From the NCBI RefSeq assembly GCF_003991155.1, contig NZ_CP031293.1: a DNA stretch of 64,000 bases; one strand, given 5' to 3'. This stretch comes from Escherichia coli. Its GTDB lineage: Bacteria; Pseudomonadota; Gammaproteobacteria; Enterobacterales; Enterobacteriaceae. Position numbers: made by a program. Of this stretch, positions 28,101 through 34,100 are shown one piece after another (position 1 is the first letter of the stretch; every line of letters starts with the position of its first letter).

Positions 28101-31100
28101 AGCAGCGTGGTGTTGTATTGTTCGGCGATCGCCTCCAGCGTACCGTCCGGCTCCGTTTTCAAAAATTCCTGTAACGAGACATGGCTCATAAATCACTCCT
28201 GTTATGGTTTTTCAAGCGCAATTGCTGGCGCATTAAGTACCTGAATCAGTTCATTAAGAGACTGCAAAATGTTGCTTGCCCAGAAACGACCTTCATTGGT
28301 CAACCGCAGACACGTTGACGCATCGCGGCTTAAGCCTTTTTGGTGCCACTGGGCCAGTAACGGCGCGAGTTTTTCGGCATGTGGCGTAAGTTCGTCCAGC
28401 GGTACACGCGCCGTTTCAATGCCCGACTGCAAGGTATGACGCCACTGCGCGTTACGTTCGGCGTTACGCATGATCATCATCAGCGGTTTTTTGCCTGCCG
28501 CGACGGATTCATGCCAGGTCTGAAGATTGCGTTCGTTCATCCAGGAGTAACCATTAATCGAACCACCGGCTCCAGAACCAAAGGCCAGACAATCGGCACC
28601 TTGTTTAATCAGCAGGTTATAGAGATTGCGTTCGCGTGTGGTACGGCCCCAGTGGCTGTTACTGATGCAGCGCCAACCGGCATCGTCCATAAAATCACAC
28701 CCTTGCAGGTAAAGATCGCGACGTTCTGCCGGAGAGGGCACGGTAGTGCGCCCATTTTCCACGGCTTTGCCCAGCGGTGTATTGGGCAGGACATTGAGCG
28801 CATAGAGATCGACGCCGTCGAGACCGATATCGCGGGCAATAGCCAGATCTTCTCCCCAGGTTTGCGCATCCTGACCCGGCAGACCAAACAGCAGGTCACA
28901 GACCACCGCGGCACGGTCGCGTTTGACCAGGCTTTCCATAAACGCAATAGCGGTTGGGCCATCCGAGGTGCGGGCCATTTTCTTGCGGATTTTGCTGTTA
29001 AACGACTGAATACCAATTGAGAAGCGGTTTGCTCCTGCATCAAGGCAAGCATCGATTCGCTCAGCGTCAAAATTCAGTACCCGGCCTTCGATAGTGATTT
29101 CACAATCAGGGGCCAGTGGCAGCTTTTCTCGTAATGTGGTGATGATTCTGGCCAAATCGTGTGCCGAAAGCGCGGAAGGCGTACCGCCACCGAAATAGAC
29201 CGCGTGGATGGGGGCAGACTGATGCAATACGCTGTCTGCTTCCCGTTCTATTTCACGAATCAGGGCGTCGGTATAATGAGCACACGCATCTTCATTAAAA
29301 CGGTTCTGATAAAAACCACAAAACGTGCAGTGTGTTGCACAAAAAGGAATGTGTAGATAAACCAGTCGCTTACGTGGTGATACCGTTTGATTGAGCATCT
29401 CTTGCCAGGTCTGTGCCAGTTGCTCTTTGGCAACTGGAATGGCCCCACGAAACGGCATCATGGCGCGCCTGTCTTTAAAGGGCTGATCACCGTCTAAAGC
29501 AAAATGTGGCGTGAGATCCAGGGTGTTATTTGTGTTCATTCGTCTGATTTAAATCCATTTATTGCGGCCAAAGCTGCTGGTGTAAAGACTCAACGACATC
29601 AGCAATACGCGGACCCATTCCCAGAATCAGGTTTTGATCAACGGTGATAATGCGCTGGTTCTTCCAGGCGGCGGTGTGGGTAATTCCGGCAATAGAACGT
29701 AGCCGATTAATATCGCCATCGACCATTTGTGAGGTGACGACAATCACTTCAGGGTTAGCCGCAATCAGCGATTCCGCGCTGTAGCTTTTGTACTGCTGGT
29801 GGGTAGCGACGTTTTCTGCTCCGGCAAGCGAAAGAATGGCGTCCGCGACGCTGCCTTTACCGGCAACCTGTGGCGCACTTCCGCCTGCGGAGAGAATAAA
29901 CATGGCTTTAACCGGGGCTTTTTTGGCCGCCACGTTTTGCTGTACTCGCTCCAGGCGTTGGTTGATCTGTGTCACCAGCGCCTCGCCTTGTTCAGGAACC
30001 TGTAGCGTTTTTGCCAGTTGGCGAATGTTGGCGTACATCTGCTCAAGGGTGGCAGGCACACGCGGCAGGGTGACGACGTTGACTTTCTGCGCTCGTAGTT
30101 GGTCGAGCACAATTTGTGGCCCGGCATCCTGCCAGGTAATTACGCTATCCGGGCGAAGTGACAAAATGCCTTCGCTGCTGAGTTGTTTCCAGTAACCAAT
30201 ATGCGGCAGTCTGGCGGTTTCTGGTGGATAAGATGTCGTTTCATCGACACCAACCACGCGTTTGCCAGCGCCCATCGCGTAGATTAGCTCCGTCAGCGAT
30301 CCTCCTGCGACCACGATACGTTCGGCAGCCGTTACGCTAAAAGTCCAGCTAAGAGCCAGTAATGCCGTAAACAATTTTTTTCGTTTTACCATGGTCTTCG
30401 CGGCAGAGACCACGGCTGAAATACATAACGTTAGTGGGGAAAAAAGAAACGGCCTGGTGATGATCCTTGGCATAATGTGAGAACTCTTATCAAATTGAGA
30501 ATGATCATGATTATCATTTGAGTTATATATGAAATACAACCGTCGATTCAATACGCACGGCGTTACAAGCGTATTTATTTTTGATTTTTATCAAGATGCT
30601 TCGTCAGCTAATGTTCTTGTTACCGATTAAATTTCAGCGCGGGAAAAAGCTGAGAACCCGGAGATATCGCGGCTTGCAGAGCAAAGAGAAGAGAAAATTA
30701 TCACTGTTAACGACAACGTTTTGTGATGAGGTTGTGGGGGGATAGTCATAAACACAGGATGGTTTTCTGGATGCTGGATAGATTTCATAACCCCCTGTTT
30801 ATTGTGTTAATGGCGGTTAAAAAAAGCTTGATCATAAAAAATTGATCGATAATAATTCTCATTATCACGTTTGAGTTTAACAAAATATGACATCATGGAT
30901 AACAAAATCATATCTTTTGTAAGGGAAAACGCACAGCACTCTTCACTTCAGACGTGGCGTACTACTTTGCCTGACAAAGAGGGCGTGCTTTTGCTGAATT
31001 ATCAGAAATATTCGGCAATTTTACGGGATATATACGCTAATAGCTTCCCGTGGTGATATCTAATCATTTGAATTGTAAATAAATTTATTTTTCGCCAGCC

Positions 31101-34100
31101 ACCCCGGTATTAACCCAGGCAGCCAGCATTTTTTATTTTCCTCATGGAGAATCGCTATGTCACGTCCGCAATTTACCTCGTTGCGTTTGAGTTTGTTGGC
31201 TTTGGCTGTTTCTGCCACCTTGCCAACATTTGCTTTTGCTACTGAAACCATGACCGTTACGGCAACCGGGAATGCACGTAGTTCCTTCGAAGCGCCTATG
31301 ATGGTCAGCGTTATCGACACTTCCGCTCCTGAAAATCAAACGGCTACTTCAGCCACCGATCTGCTGCGTCATGTTCCTGGAATTACTCTTGATGGTACCG
31401 GACGAACCAACGGTCAGGATGTAAATATGCGTGGCTATGATCATCGCGGCGTGCTGGTTCTTGTCGATGGTGTTCGCCAGGGAACGGATACCGGACACCT
31501 GAATGGCACTTTTCTCGATCCGGCGCTGATCAAGCGTGTTGAGATTGTTCGCGGACCTTCAGCATTACTGTATGGCAGTGGCGCGCTGGGTGGAGTGATC
31601 TCCTACGATACGGTCGATGCAAAAGATTTATTGCAGGAAGGACAACGCAGTGGTTTTCGTGTCTTTGGTACTGGCGGCACGGGGGACCATAGCCTGGGAT
31701 TAGGCGCGAGCGCGTTTGGGCGAACTGAAAATCTGGATGGTATTGTGGCCTGGTCCAGTCGCGATCGGGGTGATTTACGCCAGAGCAATGGTGAAACCGC
31801 GCCGAATGACGAGTCCATTAATAACATGCTGGCGAAAGGGACCTGGCAAATTGATTCAGCCCAGTCTCTGAGCGGTTTAGTGCGTTACTACAACAACGAC
31901 GCGCGTGAACCAAAAAATCCGCAGACTGTTGAGGCTTCTGATAGCAGCAACCCGATGGTTGATCGTTCAACAATTCAACGCGATGCGCAGCTTTCTTATA
32001 AACTCGCCCCGCAGGGCAACGACTGGTTAAATGCAGATGCAAAAATTTACTGGTCGGAAGTCCGTATTAATGCGCAAAACACGGGGAGTTCCGGCGAGTA
32101 TCGTGAACAGATAACAAAAGGAGCCAGGCTGGAGAACCGTTCCACTCTATTTGCCGACAGTTTCGCTTCTCACTTACTGACATATGGCGGTGAGTATTAT
32201 CGTCAGGAACAACATCCGGGCGGCGCGACGACGGGCTTCCCGCAAGCAAAAATCGATTTTAGCTCCGGCTGGCTACAGGATGAGATCACCTTACGCGATC
32301 TGCCGATTACTCTGCTTGGCGGAACCCGCTATGACAGTTATCGCGGTAGCAGCGACGGCTACAAAGATGTTGATGCTGACAAATGGTCATCTCGTGCGGG
32401 GATGACTATCAACCCGACCAACTGGCTGATGTTATTTGGCTCATATGCCCAGGCATTCCGCGCCCCGACGATGGGCGAAATGTATAACGATTCTAAGCAC
32501 TTCTCGATTGGTCGCTTCTATACCAACTATTGGGTGCCAAACCCGAACTTACGTCCGGAAACTAACGAAACTCAGGAGTACGGTTTTGGGCTGCGTTTTG
32601 ATGACCTGATGTTGTCCAATGATGCTCTGGAATTTAAAGCCAGCTACTTTGATACCAAAGCGAAGGATTACATCTCCACGACCGTCGATTTCGCGGCGGC
32701 GACAACTATGTCGTATAACGTCCCGAACGCCAAAATCTGGGGCTGGGATGTAATGACGAAATATACCACTGATCTGTTTAGCCTTGATGTGGCCTATAAC
32801 CGTACCCGCGGCAAAGACACCGATACTGGGGAATATATCTCCAGCATTAACCCGGATACCGTTACCAGTACCCTGAATATTCCGATCGCTCACAGTGGCT
32901 TCTCTGTTGGGTGGGTTGGTACGTTTGCCGATCGCTCAACACATATCAGCAGCAGTTACAGCAAACAACCTGGCTATGGTGTGAATGATTTCTACGTCAG
33001 TTATCAAGGACAACAGGCGCTCAAAGGCATGACCACTACTCTGGTATTGGGCAACGCCTTCGATAAAGAGTACTGGTCGCCGCAAGGCATCCCACAGGAT
33101 GGTCGTAACGGAAAAATTTTCGTGAGTTATCAATGGTAATCATCTGCCCCGATATTTCGGGGCATTTATCTGGAAGGAAGAGAGACAATGAACCACTACA
33201 CACGCTGGCTTGAGTTAAAAGAACAAAATCCCGGAAAGTACGCGCGTGACATCGCAGGTTTAATGAATATCAGCGAAGCAGAACTGGCATTTGCGCGCGT
33301 CACGCACGACGCGTGGCGGATGCGCGGCGATATCCGTGAAATTCTGGCGGCGCTCGAAAGTGTTGGCGAAACCAAATGTATTTGCCGTAATGAATATGCA
33401 GTCCATGAGCAAGTTGGTGCGTTCACAAACCAGCATTTGAACGGACATGCCGGATTGATCCTCAATCCGCGCGCGCTGGATTTACGTCTGTTTCTCAATC
33501 AATGGGCCAGTGTTTTCCACATCAAAGAAAACACGGCTCGTGGCGAACGCCAGAGTATTCAGTTCTTTGATCATCAGGGCGATGCATTACTAAAAGTTTA
33601 TGCCACCGACAATACCGATATGGCGGCATGGAGTGAGCTTCTGGCACGGTTTATCACCGATGAGAATACGCCGCTTGAGTTAAAAGCCGTTGATGCGCCA
33701 GTTGTTCAAACGCGAGCCGATGCCAGTGTGGTCGAGCAAGAGTGGCGGGCGATGACCGACGTTCATCAGTTTTTTACGTTGCTCAAGCGCCACAACCTGA
33801 CGCGCCAACAGGCGTTCAATCTGGTGGCAGACGATTTGGCCTGCAAAGTATCCAACAGTGCGTTGGCGCAAATTCTTGAATCTGCACAGCAGGATGGCAA
33901 TGAAATCATGGTGTTTGTTGGCAACCGTGGCTGCGTACAGATTTTCACCGGTGTGGTAGAAAAAGTGGTGCCAATGAAAGGTTGGCTGAATATTTTTAAC
34001 CCGACGTTTACTCTTCATCTATTAGAAGAGAGCATTGCTGAAACCTGGGTAACCCGTAAACCTGCTAGTGACGGTTATGTGACCAGTCTGGAATTGTTTG

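What the first reader, a model, noticed from the sequence alone, without database searches (positions are those of the whole stretch)
30474..31156. Divergent chuT-chuA control region with two Fur boxes and a ~290-nt chuA leader
Near-consensus Fur boxes lie at 30499..30518 and 30848..30866. The second is about 290 bp upstream of the chuA ATG, implying a long 5' UTR. The shuA/chuA leader is reported to contain a FourU-type RNA thermometer; the T-rich run just upstream of the chuA ribosome-binding site (agcattttttattttcctcatggag) could pair with it. The 61-codon ORF at 30871..31056 lies inside this leader and is more likely non-coding. The first Fur box is only 26 bp from the annotated-style chuT start (30473), which argues the true chuT start may be the signal-peptide ATG at 30392.
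Basis: partly seen in the sequence, partly recalled or inferred. Interest (0 to 1): 0.4.

Follow-up and report, generated by a model that had tools for sequence, protein, structure and literature searches.

The report
Known chuT–chuA heme-uptake control region
This is the well-studied switch region between two E. coli heme-uptake operons (iron repressor sites, a long leader and an RNA thermometer); the finding is correct but already published, and the comparison also turned up a conserved oxygen-regulator (FNR) site and a leftover signal peptide fused onto ChuT.

Summary
The window carries the B2/UPEC allele of the E. coli chu locus.

- **Fur boxes:** the two best Fur-box matches in the 64 kb lie at 30848..30866 (17/19) and 30497..30515 (16/19).
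- **chuA leader:** the published chuA start site (291-nt leader in EHEC by dRNA-seq; a 293-nt UPEC leader was tested) maps to about 30864/5, inside the second box.
- **Thermometer:** Rfam's shuA/chuA thermometer model matches 31128..31159 perfectly.
- **chuT start site:** the published shuT start site lies 42 nt upstream of ATG 30473, on the first base of the first box.
- **61-codon ORF:** it differs by frameshifts and mostly nonsynonymous changes among Escherichia lineages, so it is non-coding.

That ATG is allele-specific (an Ala codon in EHEC/Shigella-type alleles).

Two points go beyond the papers I could search. ChuT codons 1-27 are homologous to the signal peptide of a TonB-dependent receptor gene that precedes chuT in 29 other Enterobacterales species, so this looks like an in-frame deletion fusion. 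A perfect FNR palindrome (30581..30594) sits about 72 bp upstream of the chuT start site and is conserved in 32 of 32 loci.

Core finding: already known, low interest.

The parts
29559..30473 (-). chuT CDS as annotated in RefSeq (304 aa), the periplasmic heme-binding protein
   Evidence: Residues 49-304 align end to end with the ShuT crystal-structure chain 2r7a_A (E 1.5e-161; a handful of substitutions).
30393..30473 (-). First 27 codons of annotated chuT (MPRIITRPFLFSPLTLCISAVVSA|AKT): the relic signal peptide of a TonB-dependent receptor gene that was deleted in Escherichia
   Evidence: BLASTP against the Citrobacter amalonaticus receptor gives 18/32 identical residues, aligned from residue 1, E 1e-10. 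Supported by alignment A3 and DNA alignment A4. There are no indels in six Escherichia lineages but also no codon-position bias.
30390..30392 (-). It is specific to the B2-type allele and is followed by ChuT's own signal peptide.
   Evidence: This codon is GCA/GCG in O157:H7, MDR_56, PS10-3, ET350 and L006, and ACG/GCA/GCG in E69, SCPM-8794 and E. albertii. It lies in a 10-bp stem.
30474..30515 (-). chuT 42-nt 5' UTR with SD AAGAG and the published shuT RNA-thermometer hairpin
   Evidence: PMC5458455. The fold pairs A14-U18 with AGAGU of the SD, -6.0 kcal/mol at 25 C and -3.5 at 37 C. Identity across Escherichia is 91-98%.
30497..30521 (.). chuT Fur box, 16/19 at 30497..30515, with an overlapping 15/19 match at 30503..30521
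   Evidence: It equals +1..+19 of shuT, which was shown to bind Fur and to be required for iron regulation.
30522..30551 (-). chuT promoter: -10 TATAAC (30527..30522) and -35 TTGAAT (30551..30546), with an 18-nt spacer
   Evidence: Read from the sequence relative to the published +1. The stretch 30516..30552 is 100% identical in EHEC-type alleles and homologous to the receptor promoters of other genera.
30581..30594 (.). Perfect FNR consensus palindrome TTGATTTTTATCAA, centred 72.5 bp upstream of the chuT start site
   Evidence: A box matching at least 9/10 is present in 32/32 loci, 69.5-73.5 bp upstream of the equivalent G. It is invariant in E. albertii, whose flanks are only 68% identical.
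30788..30827 (+). Conserved block upstream of the chuA -35 (TAACCCCCTGTTTATTGTGTTAATGG...), function unknown
   Evidence: It is conserved in all six Escherichia lineages, while the preceding 150 bp are only 61-67% identical in the three most divergent lineages.
30828..30856 (+). chuA promoter-like hexamers TTGATC, 17 nt, AATAAT
30848..30866 (.). chuA Fur box (17/19), overlapping the -10 and the start site
   Evidence: Fur ChIP-seq target in CFT073.
30865..31156 (+). chuA 5' UTR (about 292 nt in this allele)
   Evidence: The EHEC dRNA-seq start site gives a 291-nt UTR and was transferred here through A1/A2. A 293-nt UPEC UTI89 leader was used experimentally.
30895..31056 (+). Leader ORF (53 codons from the ATG; 61 from TTG 30871), judged non-coding
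   Evidence: It runs 34-53 codons with frameshifted tails in six lineages. One lineage has a GTG start, there is no SD, and nonsynonymous codon changes outnumber synonymous ones in all five comparisons (8-12 vs 1-7). No Pfam hit at E<=10.
30968..30994 (+). Conserved weak hairpin followed by a U-rich tract
   Evidence: Terminator-like hit. It is 100% conserved between the B2 and EHEC alleles, inside a leader that is otherwise 62-78% identical. It coincides with the published Term-seq 3' end at +129, which maps to about 30993.
31042..31082 (+). Equivalent of the published +177..+217 inhibitory / putative rut region
   Evidence: PMC9002310, coordinates transferred by alignment. This segment is poorly conserved between alleles (60-67%).
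31128..31159 (+). shuA/chuA FourU RNA thermometer: U31136-U31139 pair with A31148-A31151 of the SD GGAGAA
   Evidence: Rfam RF02597, 60.1 bits. Fold. It is 100% identical in all six Escherichia lineages. Mutational proof is in PMC3660397.
31157..33139 (+). chuA CDS, the TonB-dependent heme receptor
   Evidence: TIGR01785, 588.6 bits.

Best explanation
The 683-bp interval is the divergent control region of the E. coli heme-utilisation locus (chuTWXYUV to the left, chuAS to the right), in its B2/UPEC allele.

Shown by published experiments and re-found here:
- Each promoter is repressed by Fe-Fur through a near-consensus box that covers its transcription start. For chuA the box spans the -10 and +1. 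For chuT it spans +1 to +19.
- chuA is transcribed with a roughly 292-nt leader. Its last 32 nt form a FourU hairpin that hides the Shine-Dalgarno sequence at 25 C and opens at 37 C.
- The leader also carries the published CyaR, RyhB/Esr41 and Hfq sites and the Rho-termination determinants.
- chuT is transcribed with a 42-nt leader that has its own SD-occluding thermometer hairpin.

Inferred here from comparative sequence:
- The chuT promoter, Fur box, leader, start codon and first ~27 codons are orthologous to the 5' end of a TonB-dependent receptor gene. That gene sits immediately upstream of chuT in Citrobacter, Enterobacter, Kluyvera, Klebsiella, Raoultella, Providencia, Proteus and others.
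- In Escherichia an in-frame deletion removed the receptor body. It left the receptor's signal peptide fused in front of ChuT's own signal peptide.
- ChuT's ancestral start (MKKLF) survives in E. albertii and two divergent E. coli lineages. A further 9-nt deletion removed it in E. coli proper. The B2 allele then acquired a new ATG (30392) three codons upstream of that point.
- Translation therefore most likely starts at 30473, with 30392 at best a secondary start in this allele.
- A conserved FNR site about 72 bp upstream of the chuT start probably adds anaerobic activation. That would fit the oxygen-sensitive ChuW/ChuX/ChuY heme-degradation enzymes encoded downstream.

The 61-codon leader ORF is not a gene.
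For: Locus identity and allele: 100% match to E. coli chromosomes; RefSeq annotates chuT and chuA; 99.9% identical to Nissle 1917, about 89% to O157:H7.

Fur boxes: the two best matches in 64 kb. Fur ChIP-seq in CFT073. shuT box EMSA and deletion.

chuA start site and leader: dRNA-seq, 291 nt. RT-PCR, 278-342 nt. UTI89 293-nt leader reporter. Promoter hexamers.

FourU: Rfam 60.1 bits. Hairpin energies. 100% conserved in six lineages. U-to-C and U-to-A mutants. U273A.

chuT leader: 5'-RACE, 42 nt. The hairpin was reproduced, and U15/U16 pair with the SD exactly as published.

Relic fusion:
- In 29 other species a 700-724-aa TonB-dependent receptor ORF (TIGR01785-like, about 30% identical to ChuA) ends 2-3 nt before chuT's ATG.
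- Its N-terminus MLPRINQRPFILSALTLCMSGATFA|A aligns with ChuT residues 1-27.
- The promoters align element by element.
- A 9-nt indel carries the ancestral ATG.
- ChuT has two hydrophobic peaks, each followed by an AXA site.

FNR: 10/10 match. 32/32 loci, with variable N4 and fixed half-sites. The only other perfect box in the window is upstream of ccp/yhjA, which I recall from my own knowledge as a known FNR target.

Leader ORF.
Against: - No experiment was done on this exact sequence. Start-site coordinates are transferred from EHEC and Shigella by alignment, with a possible error of 1-2 nt.
- The ChuT extension shows no third-position bias (4,6,6 and 5,6,6 differences by codon position). 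Sequence alone therefore does not prove it is translated. In lineages that keep the MKKLF start it could be untranslated leader.
- A pre-protein with two tandem signal peptides is awkward for Sec export, which is a genuine argument for an internal start.
- The FNR centre is at -72.5, not the canonical -71.5. No expression or binding data exist for this site. The one paper linking FNR to chu (PMC5481319) assigns the effect to chuA through a different, weak site.
- The literature tool covers only open-access papers, so the FNR site or the fusion may already have been described elsewhere.
Confidence: 0.85

Rival explanations
1. The real chuT start is ATG 30392, the 27 upstream codons are untranslated leader, and the chuT 5' UTR is therefore about 123 nt.
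For: - MVKRKKLFTALLALSWTFSVTA|AER is a textbook Sec signal peptide.
- All 29 non-Escherichia orthologues start at M(M)KK directly in front of the equivalent hydrophobic core.
- The ShuT crystal-structure chain starts at AAERIVV.
- The extension evolves without codon-position bias.
- Creating ATG from GCG/ACG needed one or two substitutions in an otherwise 97% identical segment.
Against: - The ATG is absent from every EHEC/Shigella-type allele examined, where ShuT is nevertheless made.
- There is no SD in front of it (GCGAAGACC).
- It is buried in a -15.8 kcal/mol stem (z = -3.0).
- The initiation region around 30473 (SD, ATG, first ~7 codons) is the most conserved part of the 5' end. It is orthologous to a working receptor initiation region.
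- The 42-nt leader drives and thermoregulates translation of a reporter.
- Ribosomes starting at 30473 read in frame through 30392.
Confidence: 0.2
2. The leader ORF (30895..31056) is translated, and its translation, rather than its peptide, tunes Rho-dependent termination or chuA translation, as in leader-peptide attenuators.
For: - An ORF starting at the same position is open for at least 27 codons in all six Escherichia lineages.
- Its stop codon (31054..31056) falls inside the published +177..+217 segment, whose removal raises expression 9-fold and abolishes bicyclomycin sensitivity.
- The ATGGATAAC start context is conserved in four of six lineages.
Against: - There is no Shine-Dalgarno sequence.
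- The start is GTG in one lineage.
- The stop position moves by frameshifts (34-53 codons).
- Nonsynonymous codon changes outnumber synonymous ones in all five comparisons (8-12 vs 1-7).
- The published dissection of the leader needed no such element.
- A stop-free run of this length is not unusual in 290 nt of A+T-rich sequence; other frames reach 41-52 codons in some lineages.
Confidence: 0.08
3. The FNR palindrome is an inherited but now inert relic, or it acts on chuA rather than chuT.
For: - An fnr deletion lowered chuA-lacZ, and FNR(D154A)2 shifted a chuA promoter fragment in APEC O1.
- The centre is 1 bp off the canonical class I position.
- The site was inherited together with the rest of the receptor promoter, so its presence alone could be historical.
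Against: - It lies about 278 bp upstream of the chuA start, too far for direct activation.
- It is perfectly conserved in E. albertii, where the surrounding spacer has diverged to 68%.
- It is kept at a fixed distance from the Fur box in 32/32 loci while its four central bases vary freely, which is the signature of selection on the half-sites.
- The site predicted in the APEC paper is not present in this window.
Confidence: 0.3

Closest known systems
shuA/chuA FourU RNA thermometer (Rfam RF02597; Kouse et al. 2013, PMC3660397)
   Same: The 32-nt sequence is identical to the family consensus. It occupies the same position directly upstream of the ATG, and the same UUUU:AGAA pairing occludes the SD. 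The UPEC allele class was itself tested.
   Different: Nothing differs. This is the described element.
shuT Fur box and 5' UTR thermometer (Wei, Kouse & Murphy 2017, PMC5458455)
   Same: Same promoter, same Fur box at +1..+19, same 42-nt leader and hairpin. There is one substitution (30477, position -4) relative to the EHEC/Shigella-type allele.
   Different: This allele has an additional in-frame ATG 27 codons downstream. The paper does not discuss the origin of the N-terminal 27 codons or the upstream FNR box.
chuA leader regulation by CyaR, Rho, Hfq, RyhB and Esr41 (Sy & Tree 2022, PMC9002310)
   Same: Same long leader, same start site, and the same 3' part (31076..31159 is 100% identical to EHEC).
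   Different: The middle of the leader (30867..31075) is only 60-78% identical to the EHEC allele used there. The authors themselves found the UPEC leader 55% more active and insensitive to ChiX.
Receptor-chuTWXYUV operons of Citrobacter, Enterobacter, Kluyvera, Klebsiella, Proteus and Providencia (loci L010-L038)
   Same: Same order of FNR box, -35, -10, Fur box, SD and ATG. Homologous signal peptide. ChuT is 55-85% identical and ChuW 70-87% identical.
   Different: Those loci keep a 700-724-aa receptor between the promoter and chuT. They have no divergent chuAS within the fetched upstream flank (~2.5 kb) and no 290-nt leader or FourU element.
ccp (yhjA) promoter FNR site, present in the same window
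   Same: An exact TTGAT-N4-ATCAA palindrome upstream of an anaerobically relevant gene.
   Different: It lies about 110 bp from the ccp start codon. Its function is established (recalled from my own knowledge, not tested here), whereas the chuT site is untested.

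Membership tests
FourU RNA thermometer, Rfam RF02597 shuA_thermo | Covariance-model score at or above the curated gathering score | tested here: met
   60.1 bits against a gathering score of 58, E 2.6e-08, full length 1-32.
FourU RNA thermometer, Rfam RF02597 shuA_thermo | Four consecutive U paired with the Shine-Dalgarno sequence in a short hairpin directly upstream of the start codon | tested here: met
   U31136-U31139 pair with A31148-A31151. The 7-bp stem is the MFE structure at 25-42 C, alone and in a 76-nt context.
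FourU RNA thermometer, Rfam RF02597 shuA_thermo | Translation rises between 25 and 37 C and responds to stabilising or destabilising stem mutations | not testable with these tools
   Shown by others for the UPEC UTI89 and EHEC leaders. Here only the computed energy change is available: -8.4 to -6.1 kcal/mol.
Fur-repressed promoter | Close match to the 19-bp Fur consensus | tested here: met
   17/19 and 16/19, the top two matches in 64 kb. Shuffles reached 16 in 1 of 50 and never 17.
Fur-repressed promoter | The box overlaps the promoter or transcription start | tested here: met
   The chuA box covers the -10 and the transferred start site. The chuT box begins at the published +1. Start sites were transferred by alignment, not measured on this strain.
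Fur-repressed promoter | Fur binding and iron-dependent repression | not testable with these tools
   Published: ChIP-seq in CFT073; EMSA and reporters in S. dysenteriae.
FNR-activated (class I) promoter | TTGAT-N4-ATCAA inverted repeat | tested here: met
   10/10 at 30581..30594. There are two exact matches in the window. 16 perfect and 16 9/10 boxes in 32 loci.
FNR-activated (class I) promoter | Site centred near -61.5, -71.5, -82.5 or -92.5 (positions recalled from my own knowledge of Wing et al. 1995, not checked in a paper here) | tested here: inconclusive
   The centre is at -72.5 relative to the transferred start site, and at -69.5 to -73.5 in other genera relative to the equivalent base. 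This is within 1 bp of -71.5, but those start sites were not measured.
FNR-activated (class I) promoter | FNR- and anaerobiosis-dependent transcription | not tested
   No data found for chuT. An fnr effect on chuA-lacZ was reported in APEC.
Sec signal peptide (ChuT precursor) | Positively charged n-region, hydrophobic core, small residues at -3 and -1 | tested here: met
   Met twice. The first is MPRIITR + LTLCISAVVSA (KD 2.2) + VSA|AK. The second is KRKK + ALLALSWTFSV (KD 1.7) + VTA|AE. This is a rule-of-thumb test only; no SignalP was available.
HemP/HmuP small heme-uptake protein (considered for the leader ORF) | Match to the Pfam hemP domain | tested here: not met
   No Pfam family at E<=10 for the B2 or EHEC versions of the ORF.
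Conserved protein-coding gene (leader ORF) | Reading frame and stop preserved, excess of synonymous change | tested here: not met
   Frameshifts give 34-53 codons. Nonsynonymous versus synonymous codon changes run from 12:1 to 9:7 across lineages.

The most novel reading that the evidence does not exclude
The chuT promoter and the first 27 codons of ChuT are what remains of a deleted receptor gene, and the whole chuTWXYUV operon is co-activated by FNR from a deeply conserved site at about -72. Under this reading the two halves of the chu locus would read different signals. chuAS (aerobic heme oxygenase side) responds to iron, temperature, CyaR and Rho. chuTWXYUV (anaerobic degradation side) responds to iron, temperature and absence of oxygen. 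E. coli ChuT would be made as a precursor with two tandem signal peptides, and the B2 lineage would have partly repaired this with a new internal start codon. I found neither the FNR site nor the fusion in the papers I could search.
Probability: 0.5. Interest if true: 0.5.

Novelty: already known. Interest (0 to 1): 0.3.

Why it matters
The region itself is textbook material for heme-uptake regulation in Shigella, EHEC and UPEC, so confirming it adds little.

The comparative by-products have modest value.
- They explain why ChuT/ShuT is annotated with an odd 49-residue presequence.
- They show that the shuT thermometer and Fur box were inherited from a receptor gene.
- They predict an untested oxygen input (FNR) to the operon that encodes the oxygen-sensitive heme-degrading enzyme ChuW.

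If the FNR prediction is confirmed, it would complete the published 'logic gate' picture of chu regulation. It would also matter for how heme is used in the anaerobic gut compared with oxygenated tissues.

Tried and rejected
- **Leader ORF as a degenerate hemP/hmuP gene, as found upstream of Yersinia hemR.** A by-eye resemblance (G-x-hydrophobic3-x...LR) prompted a Pfam scan at E<=10. It found nothing, and the ORF is frameshifted between alleles. Rejected.
- **Other structured RNAs in 29500..32000.** A permissive Rfam scan (E<=10) found only shuA_thermo. No Rfam family exists for the shuT thermometer.
- **Codon-position test for translation of the ChuT extension.** Uninformative: the differences are evenly spread.
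- **NCBIfam scan for a ChuT-specific model that would show where the family profile starts.** Only BtuF-like models hit, below their cut-offs.
- **Literature search for a described FNR site at chuT/chuW.** Five searches and one review gave only the APEC chuA report. Its predicted site TTGTAATGTTTCAA is absent from the window even with 2 mismatches.
- **A class II FNR promoter (site at -41.5) downstream of the palindrome.** No plausible -10 was seen by eye at the right distance in the window sequence or in the Citrobacter loci printed. Not pursued.
- **Exact breakpoint of the receptor deletion.** The 8 codons between the relic cleavage site and the ancestral ATG resemble receptor codons ~29-36 only weakly. 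Left unresolved.

Full report
**What the window is.** The 1-kb stretch around the finding is 100% identical to many E. coli chromosomes and is present in 2236 of 5426 complete genomes. RefSeq annotates chuT at window 29559..30473 (minus strand) and chuA at 31157..33139 (plus strand). hutW/chuW, hutX, chuY and chuU lie downstream of chuT, and chuS lies downstream of chuA. The intergenic sequence comes in two allele classes. The window belongs to the B2/UPEC class: 99.9% identical to Nissle 1917, with 1222 genomes at 99% or more. The EHEC/Shigella-type class is about 89% identical over the intergenic region.

**Checking the observation.**
Composition-preserving shuffles usually peak at 14.
- A permissive Rfam scan of 29500..32000 returns a single hit, RF02597 'shuA/chuA 5' UTR thermoregulator', at 31128..31159. 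It scores 60.1 bits against a gathering score of 58 and is identical to the consensus.
- The hairpin A31135-C31141 / G31146-U31152, in which UUUU pairs with AGAA of the SD GGAGAA, is the minimum-energy fold from 25 to 42 C. It weakens from -8.4 to -6.1 kcal/mol between 25 and 37 C.
- The 61-codon ORF and both candidate chuT starts exist as described.

**What is already published.**
- Kouse et al. 2013 showed the shuA leader is 278-342 nt long. They showed that the 293-nt chuA leader of UPEC UTI89 confers thermoregulation, which responds as predicted to a stabilising U-to-C and a destabilising U-to-A mutation 19 nt upstream of the ATG. That position is window 31138, inside the FourU run.
- Sy & Tree 2022 mapped the EHEC chuA start by dRNA-seq, giving a 291-nt UTR. 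Within the leader they described Hfq peaks, activation by CyaR, Rho-dependent termination at +271, Term-seq ends at +129, +271 and +297, and a strongly inhibitory segment at +177..+217.
- Through alignments A1/A2, the start site maps to window 30865. This is inside the Fur box and just downstream of promoter-like hexamers TTGATC-17-AATAAT.
- Wei et al. 2017 mapped the shuT start by 5'-RACE to 42 nt upstream of the start codon. They placed a Fur box at +1..+19, showed by EMSA and a 5-nt truncation that it mediates iron control, and showed that the 42-nt leader is an RNA thermometer.
- With ATG 30473, their +1 is G30515, the first base of the 16/19 box. My fold of 30515..30471 reproduces their hairpin, including the U15/U16 they mutated.
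- Banerjee et al. 2020 list chuAS and chuTWXYU as direct Fur targets in CFT073.

The core of the finding is therefore known biology.

**The 61-codon ORF.** I compared six Escherichia lineages: B2, O157:H7, MDR_56, two divergent E. coli (E69 and SCPM-O-B-8794) and E. albertii.
- The ORF that starts at the ATG equivalent to 30895 is 34-53 codons long, with different frameshifted tails.
- It starts with GTG in one lineage and has no SD.
- Nonsynonymous codon changes outnumber synonymous ones in all five comparisons (from 12:1 to 9:7).
- It hits no Pfam family, including hemP, at E<=10.

A role for its translation as such cannot be excluded, but nothing supports it.

**The chuT start.** The ATG at 30392 is specific to the B2 allele. 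The codon is GCA or GCG (Ala) in O157:H7, MDR_56, PS10-3, ET350 and L006. In the B2 allele it lies in the 3' arm of a 10-bp stem (-15.8 kcal/mol, z = -3.0), which is weaker or absent in other alleles, and it has no SD.

To see what the ancestral start was, I fetched chuT loci from one genome per species.
- In all 29 non-Escherichia species (Citrobacter, Enterobacter, Kluyvera, Klebsiella, Raoultella, Pluralibacter, Intestinirhabdus, Providencia, Proteus), ChuT begins M(M)KK directly at its signal peptide.
- In those species chuT is preceded on the same strand, 2-3 nt away, by a 700-724-aa TonB-dependent heme-receptor-like gene that is only about 30% identical to ChuA.
- E. albertii and the two divergent E. 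coli lineages keep that MKKLF start and also have the upstream ATG.
- E. coli proper lacks 9 nt that include the MKKLF ATG.

**Origin of the 27 extra codons.** The receptor's N-terminus (for example MLPRINQRPFILSALTLCMSGATFA|ATSP... in C. braakii) aligns from residue 1 with ChuT's MPRIITRPFLFSPLTLCISAVVSA|AKT. BLASTP against the C. amalonaticus receptor gives 18/32 identities, E 1e-10. The DNA upstream aligns element by element: an FNR-type palindrome, -35 TTGAAY, an A/T-rich -10, the Fur box, SD AAGAG/AAAGG, and the ATG.

The simplest reading is an in-frame deletion in the Escherichia ancestor. It removed the receptor body and left its promoter, Fur box, leader, start codon and signal peptide fused to chuT. 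This explains several things:
- The two hydrophobic segments in ChuT, each followed by an AXA site.
- Why the region from -42 to about +20 around ATG 30473 is the best-conserved part of the 5' end.
- Why the ancestral chuT start could later be lost.

I therefore favour 30473 as the main start. The extension shows no codon-position bias, and a tandem-signal-peptide precursor is awkward for export. An additional or alternative start at 30392 in this allele therefore remains possible; I put it at about 0.2 as the sole start.

**FNR site.** While reading the spacer between the two promoters I noticed TTGATTTTTATCAA at 30581..30594, a 10/10 match to the FNR consensus.
- Its centre is 72.5 bp upstream of the chuT start.
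- The block around it is invariant in all six Escherichia lineages, although the flanks in E. albertii are only 68% identical.
- Every one of the 32 loci with promoter sequence has a box matching at least 9/10 (16 are perfect). The boxes lie 69.5-73.5 bp upstream of the equivalent base, with the four central bases varying freely.
- The only other perfect box in the window lies upstream of ccp/yhjA, which I recall as an established FNR target, so it serves as an internal control.

Functionally this fits: chuW, chuX and chuY encode the anaerobic heme-degradation pathway. I found no description of this site. The one related report, in APEC, attributes an fnr effect to chuA through a different, weak predicted site that is not present in this window. 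FNR activation of chuTWXYUV is an inference to be tested, not a result.

**Other features of the leader.**
- Divergence between alleles is concentrated in 30867..31075 (60-78% identity to EHEC). In contrast, 31076..31159 is 100% identical, and the short hairpin plus U-tract at 30968..30994 is also invariant between the alleles.
- That hairpin is a weak terminator-like site. It coincides with the published Term-seq 3' end at +129 (about 30993).
- A block upstream of the chuA -35 (30788..30827) is conserved across Escherichia, whereas the 150 bp before it are not. Its function is unknown.

**Verdict.** The finding is accurate, but it describes an element that is already known and extensively dissected. 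One of its five interpretive claims, the downstream chuT start, is not supported as argued. The relic signal peptide and the conserved FNR box are modest new leads that came out of the comparison.

Noticed in passing
window 30581..30594: Perfect FNR consensus palindrome TTGATTTTTATCAA, about 72 bp upstream of the chuT transcription start. It is conserved (at least 9/10) at the same distance in 32/32 orthologous promoters from a dozen genera. It was not found in the searchable literature.
   Followed up: yes
window 30393..30473 (minus strand); loci L010-L038 about 285-450: The first 27 codons of annotated ChuT are homologous to the signal peptide of a TonB-dependent receptor gene that precedes chuT in other Enterobacterales. 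Escherichia ChuT is an in-frame deletion fusion with two tandem signal peptides.
   Followed up: yes
alignment A2 columns 61-69, between window 30381 and 30382; L007 about 2510-2518, L008 and L009 about 2492-2500: A 9-nt indel: E. albertii and two divergent E. coli lineages keep ChuT's ancestral ATG (..MKKLF), while E. coli proper has lost it. The B2 allele has a new ATG three codons upstream.
   Followed up: yes
window 30375..30425 (minus strand): The B2-specific substitutions (GTC for GCC, ATG for GCA/GCG) jointly create a 10-bp stem, CCGUGGUCU/AGACCAUGG (-15.8 kcal/mol, z = -3.0), that contains the internal AUG. Other alleles fold at -9.7 to -13.1 kcal/mol. Significance unknown.
   Followed up: partly
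window 10383..10396: The only other exact TTGAT-N4-ATCAA in the window lies about 110 bp upstream of ccp (yhjA, cytochrome c peroxidase), in the ccp-treF intergenic region. This is presumably the known FNR site of that gene.
   Followed up: partly
window 30968..30994: A weak hairpin plus U-rich tract, invariant between the B2 and EHEC alleles inside an otherwise fast-diverging leader. It coincides with the published Term-seq 3' end at +129, although the authors reported no intrinsic terminator in the leader.
   Followed up: partly
window 30867..31075: The middle of the chuA leader is a divergence hot spot (60-78% identity between the two E. coli allele classes, against 97-100% for the flanking promoter and thermometer). 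This suggests relaxed constraint or allelic replacement.
   Followed up: partly
window 30788..30827: The block TAACCCCCTGTTTATTGTGTTAATGG..., just upstream of the chuA -35, is conserved in all Escherichia lineages, including E. albertii, while the preceding 150 bp are only 61-67% identical. It is a possible binding site for an unidentified factor, or an UP element.
   Followed up: no
L040 (E. coli WP4-S17-ESBL-03) 3508-4330; equivalent to window about 30887: IS26 is inserted about 20 nt downstream of the chuA start site, with loss of chuA-chuS and neighbouring genes (truncated rlmJ follows). This is a natural chuAS-null strain that keeps chuTWXY.
   Followed up: partly
L006 (JAIJJM010000641.1): A 1.9-kb contig labelled 'MAG: Collinsella sp.' is 98% identical to EHEC/Shigella-type chuT-chuW DNA. 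It is almost certainly an Escherichia contig mis-binned into an actinobacterial MAG.
   Followed up: no
PMC5481319, Table 1, compared with the window: The FNR site published for APEC 'chuA' (TTGTAATGTTTCAA, -66 from the ATG) does not occur anywhere in this 64-kb window, even with two mismatches. It therefore does not correspond to the chuA upstream region analysed here.
   Followed up: partly
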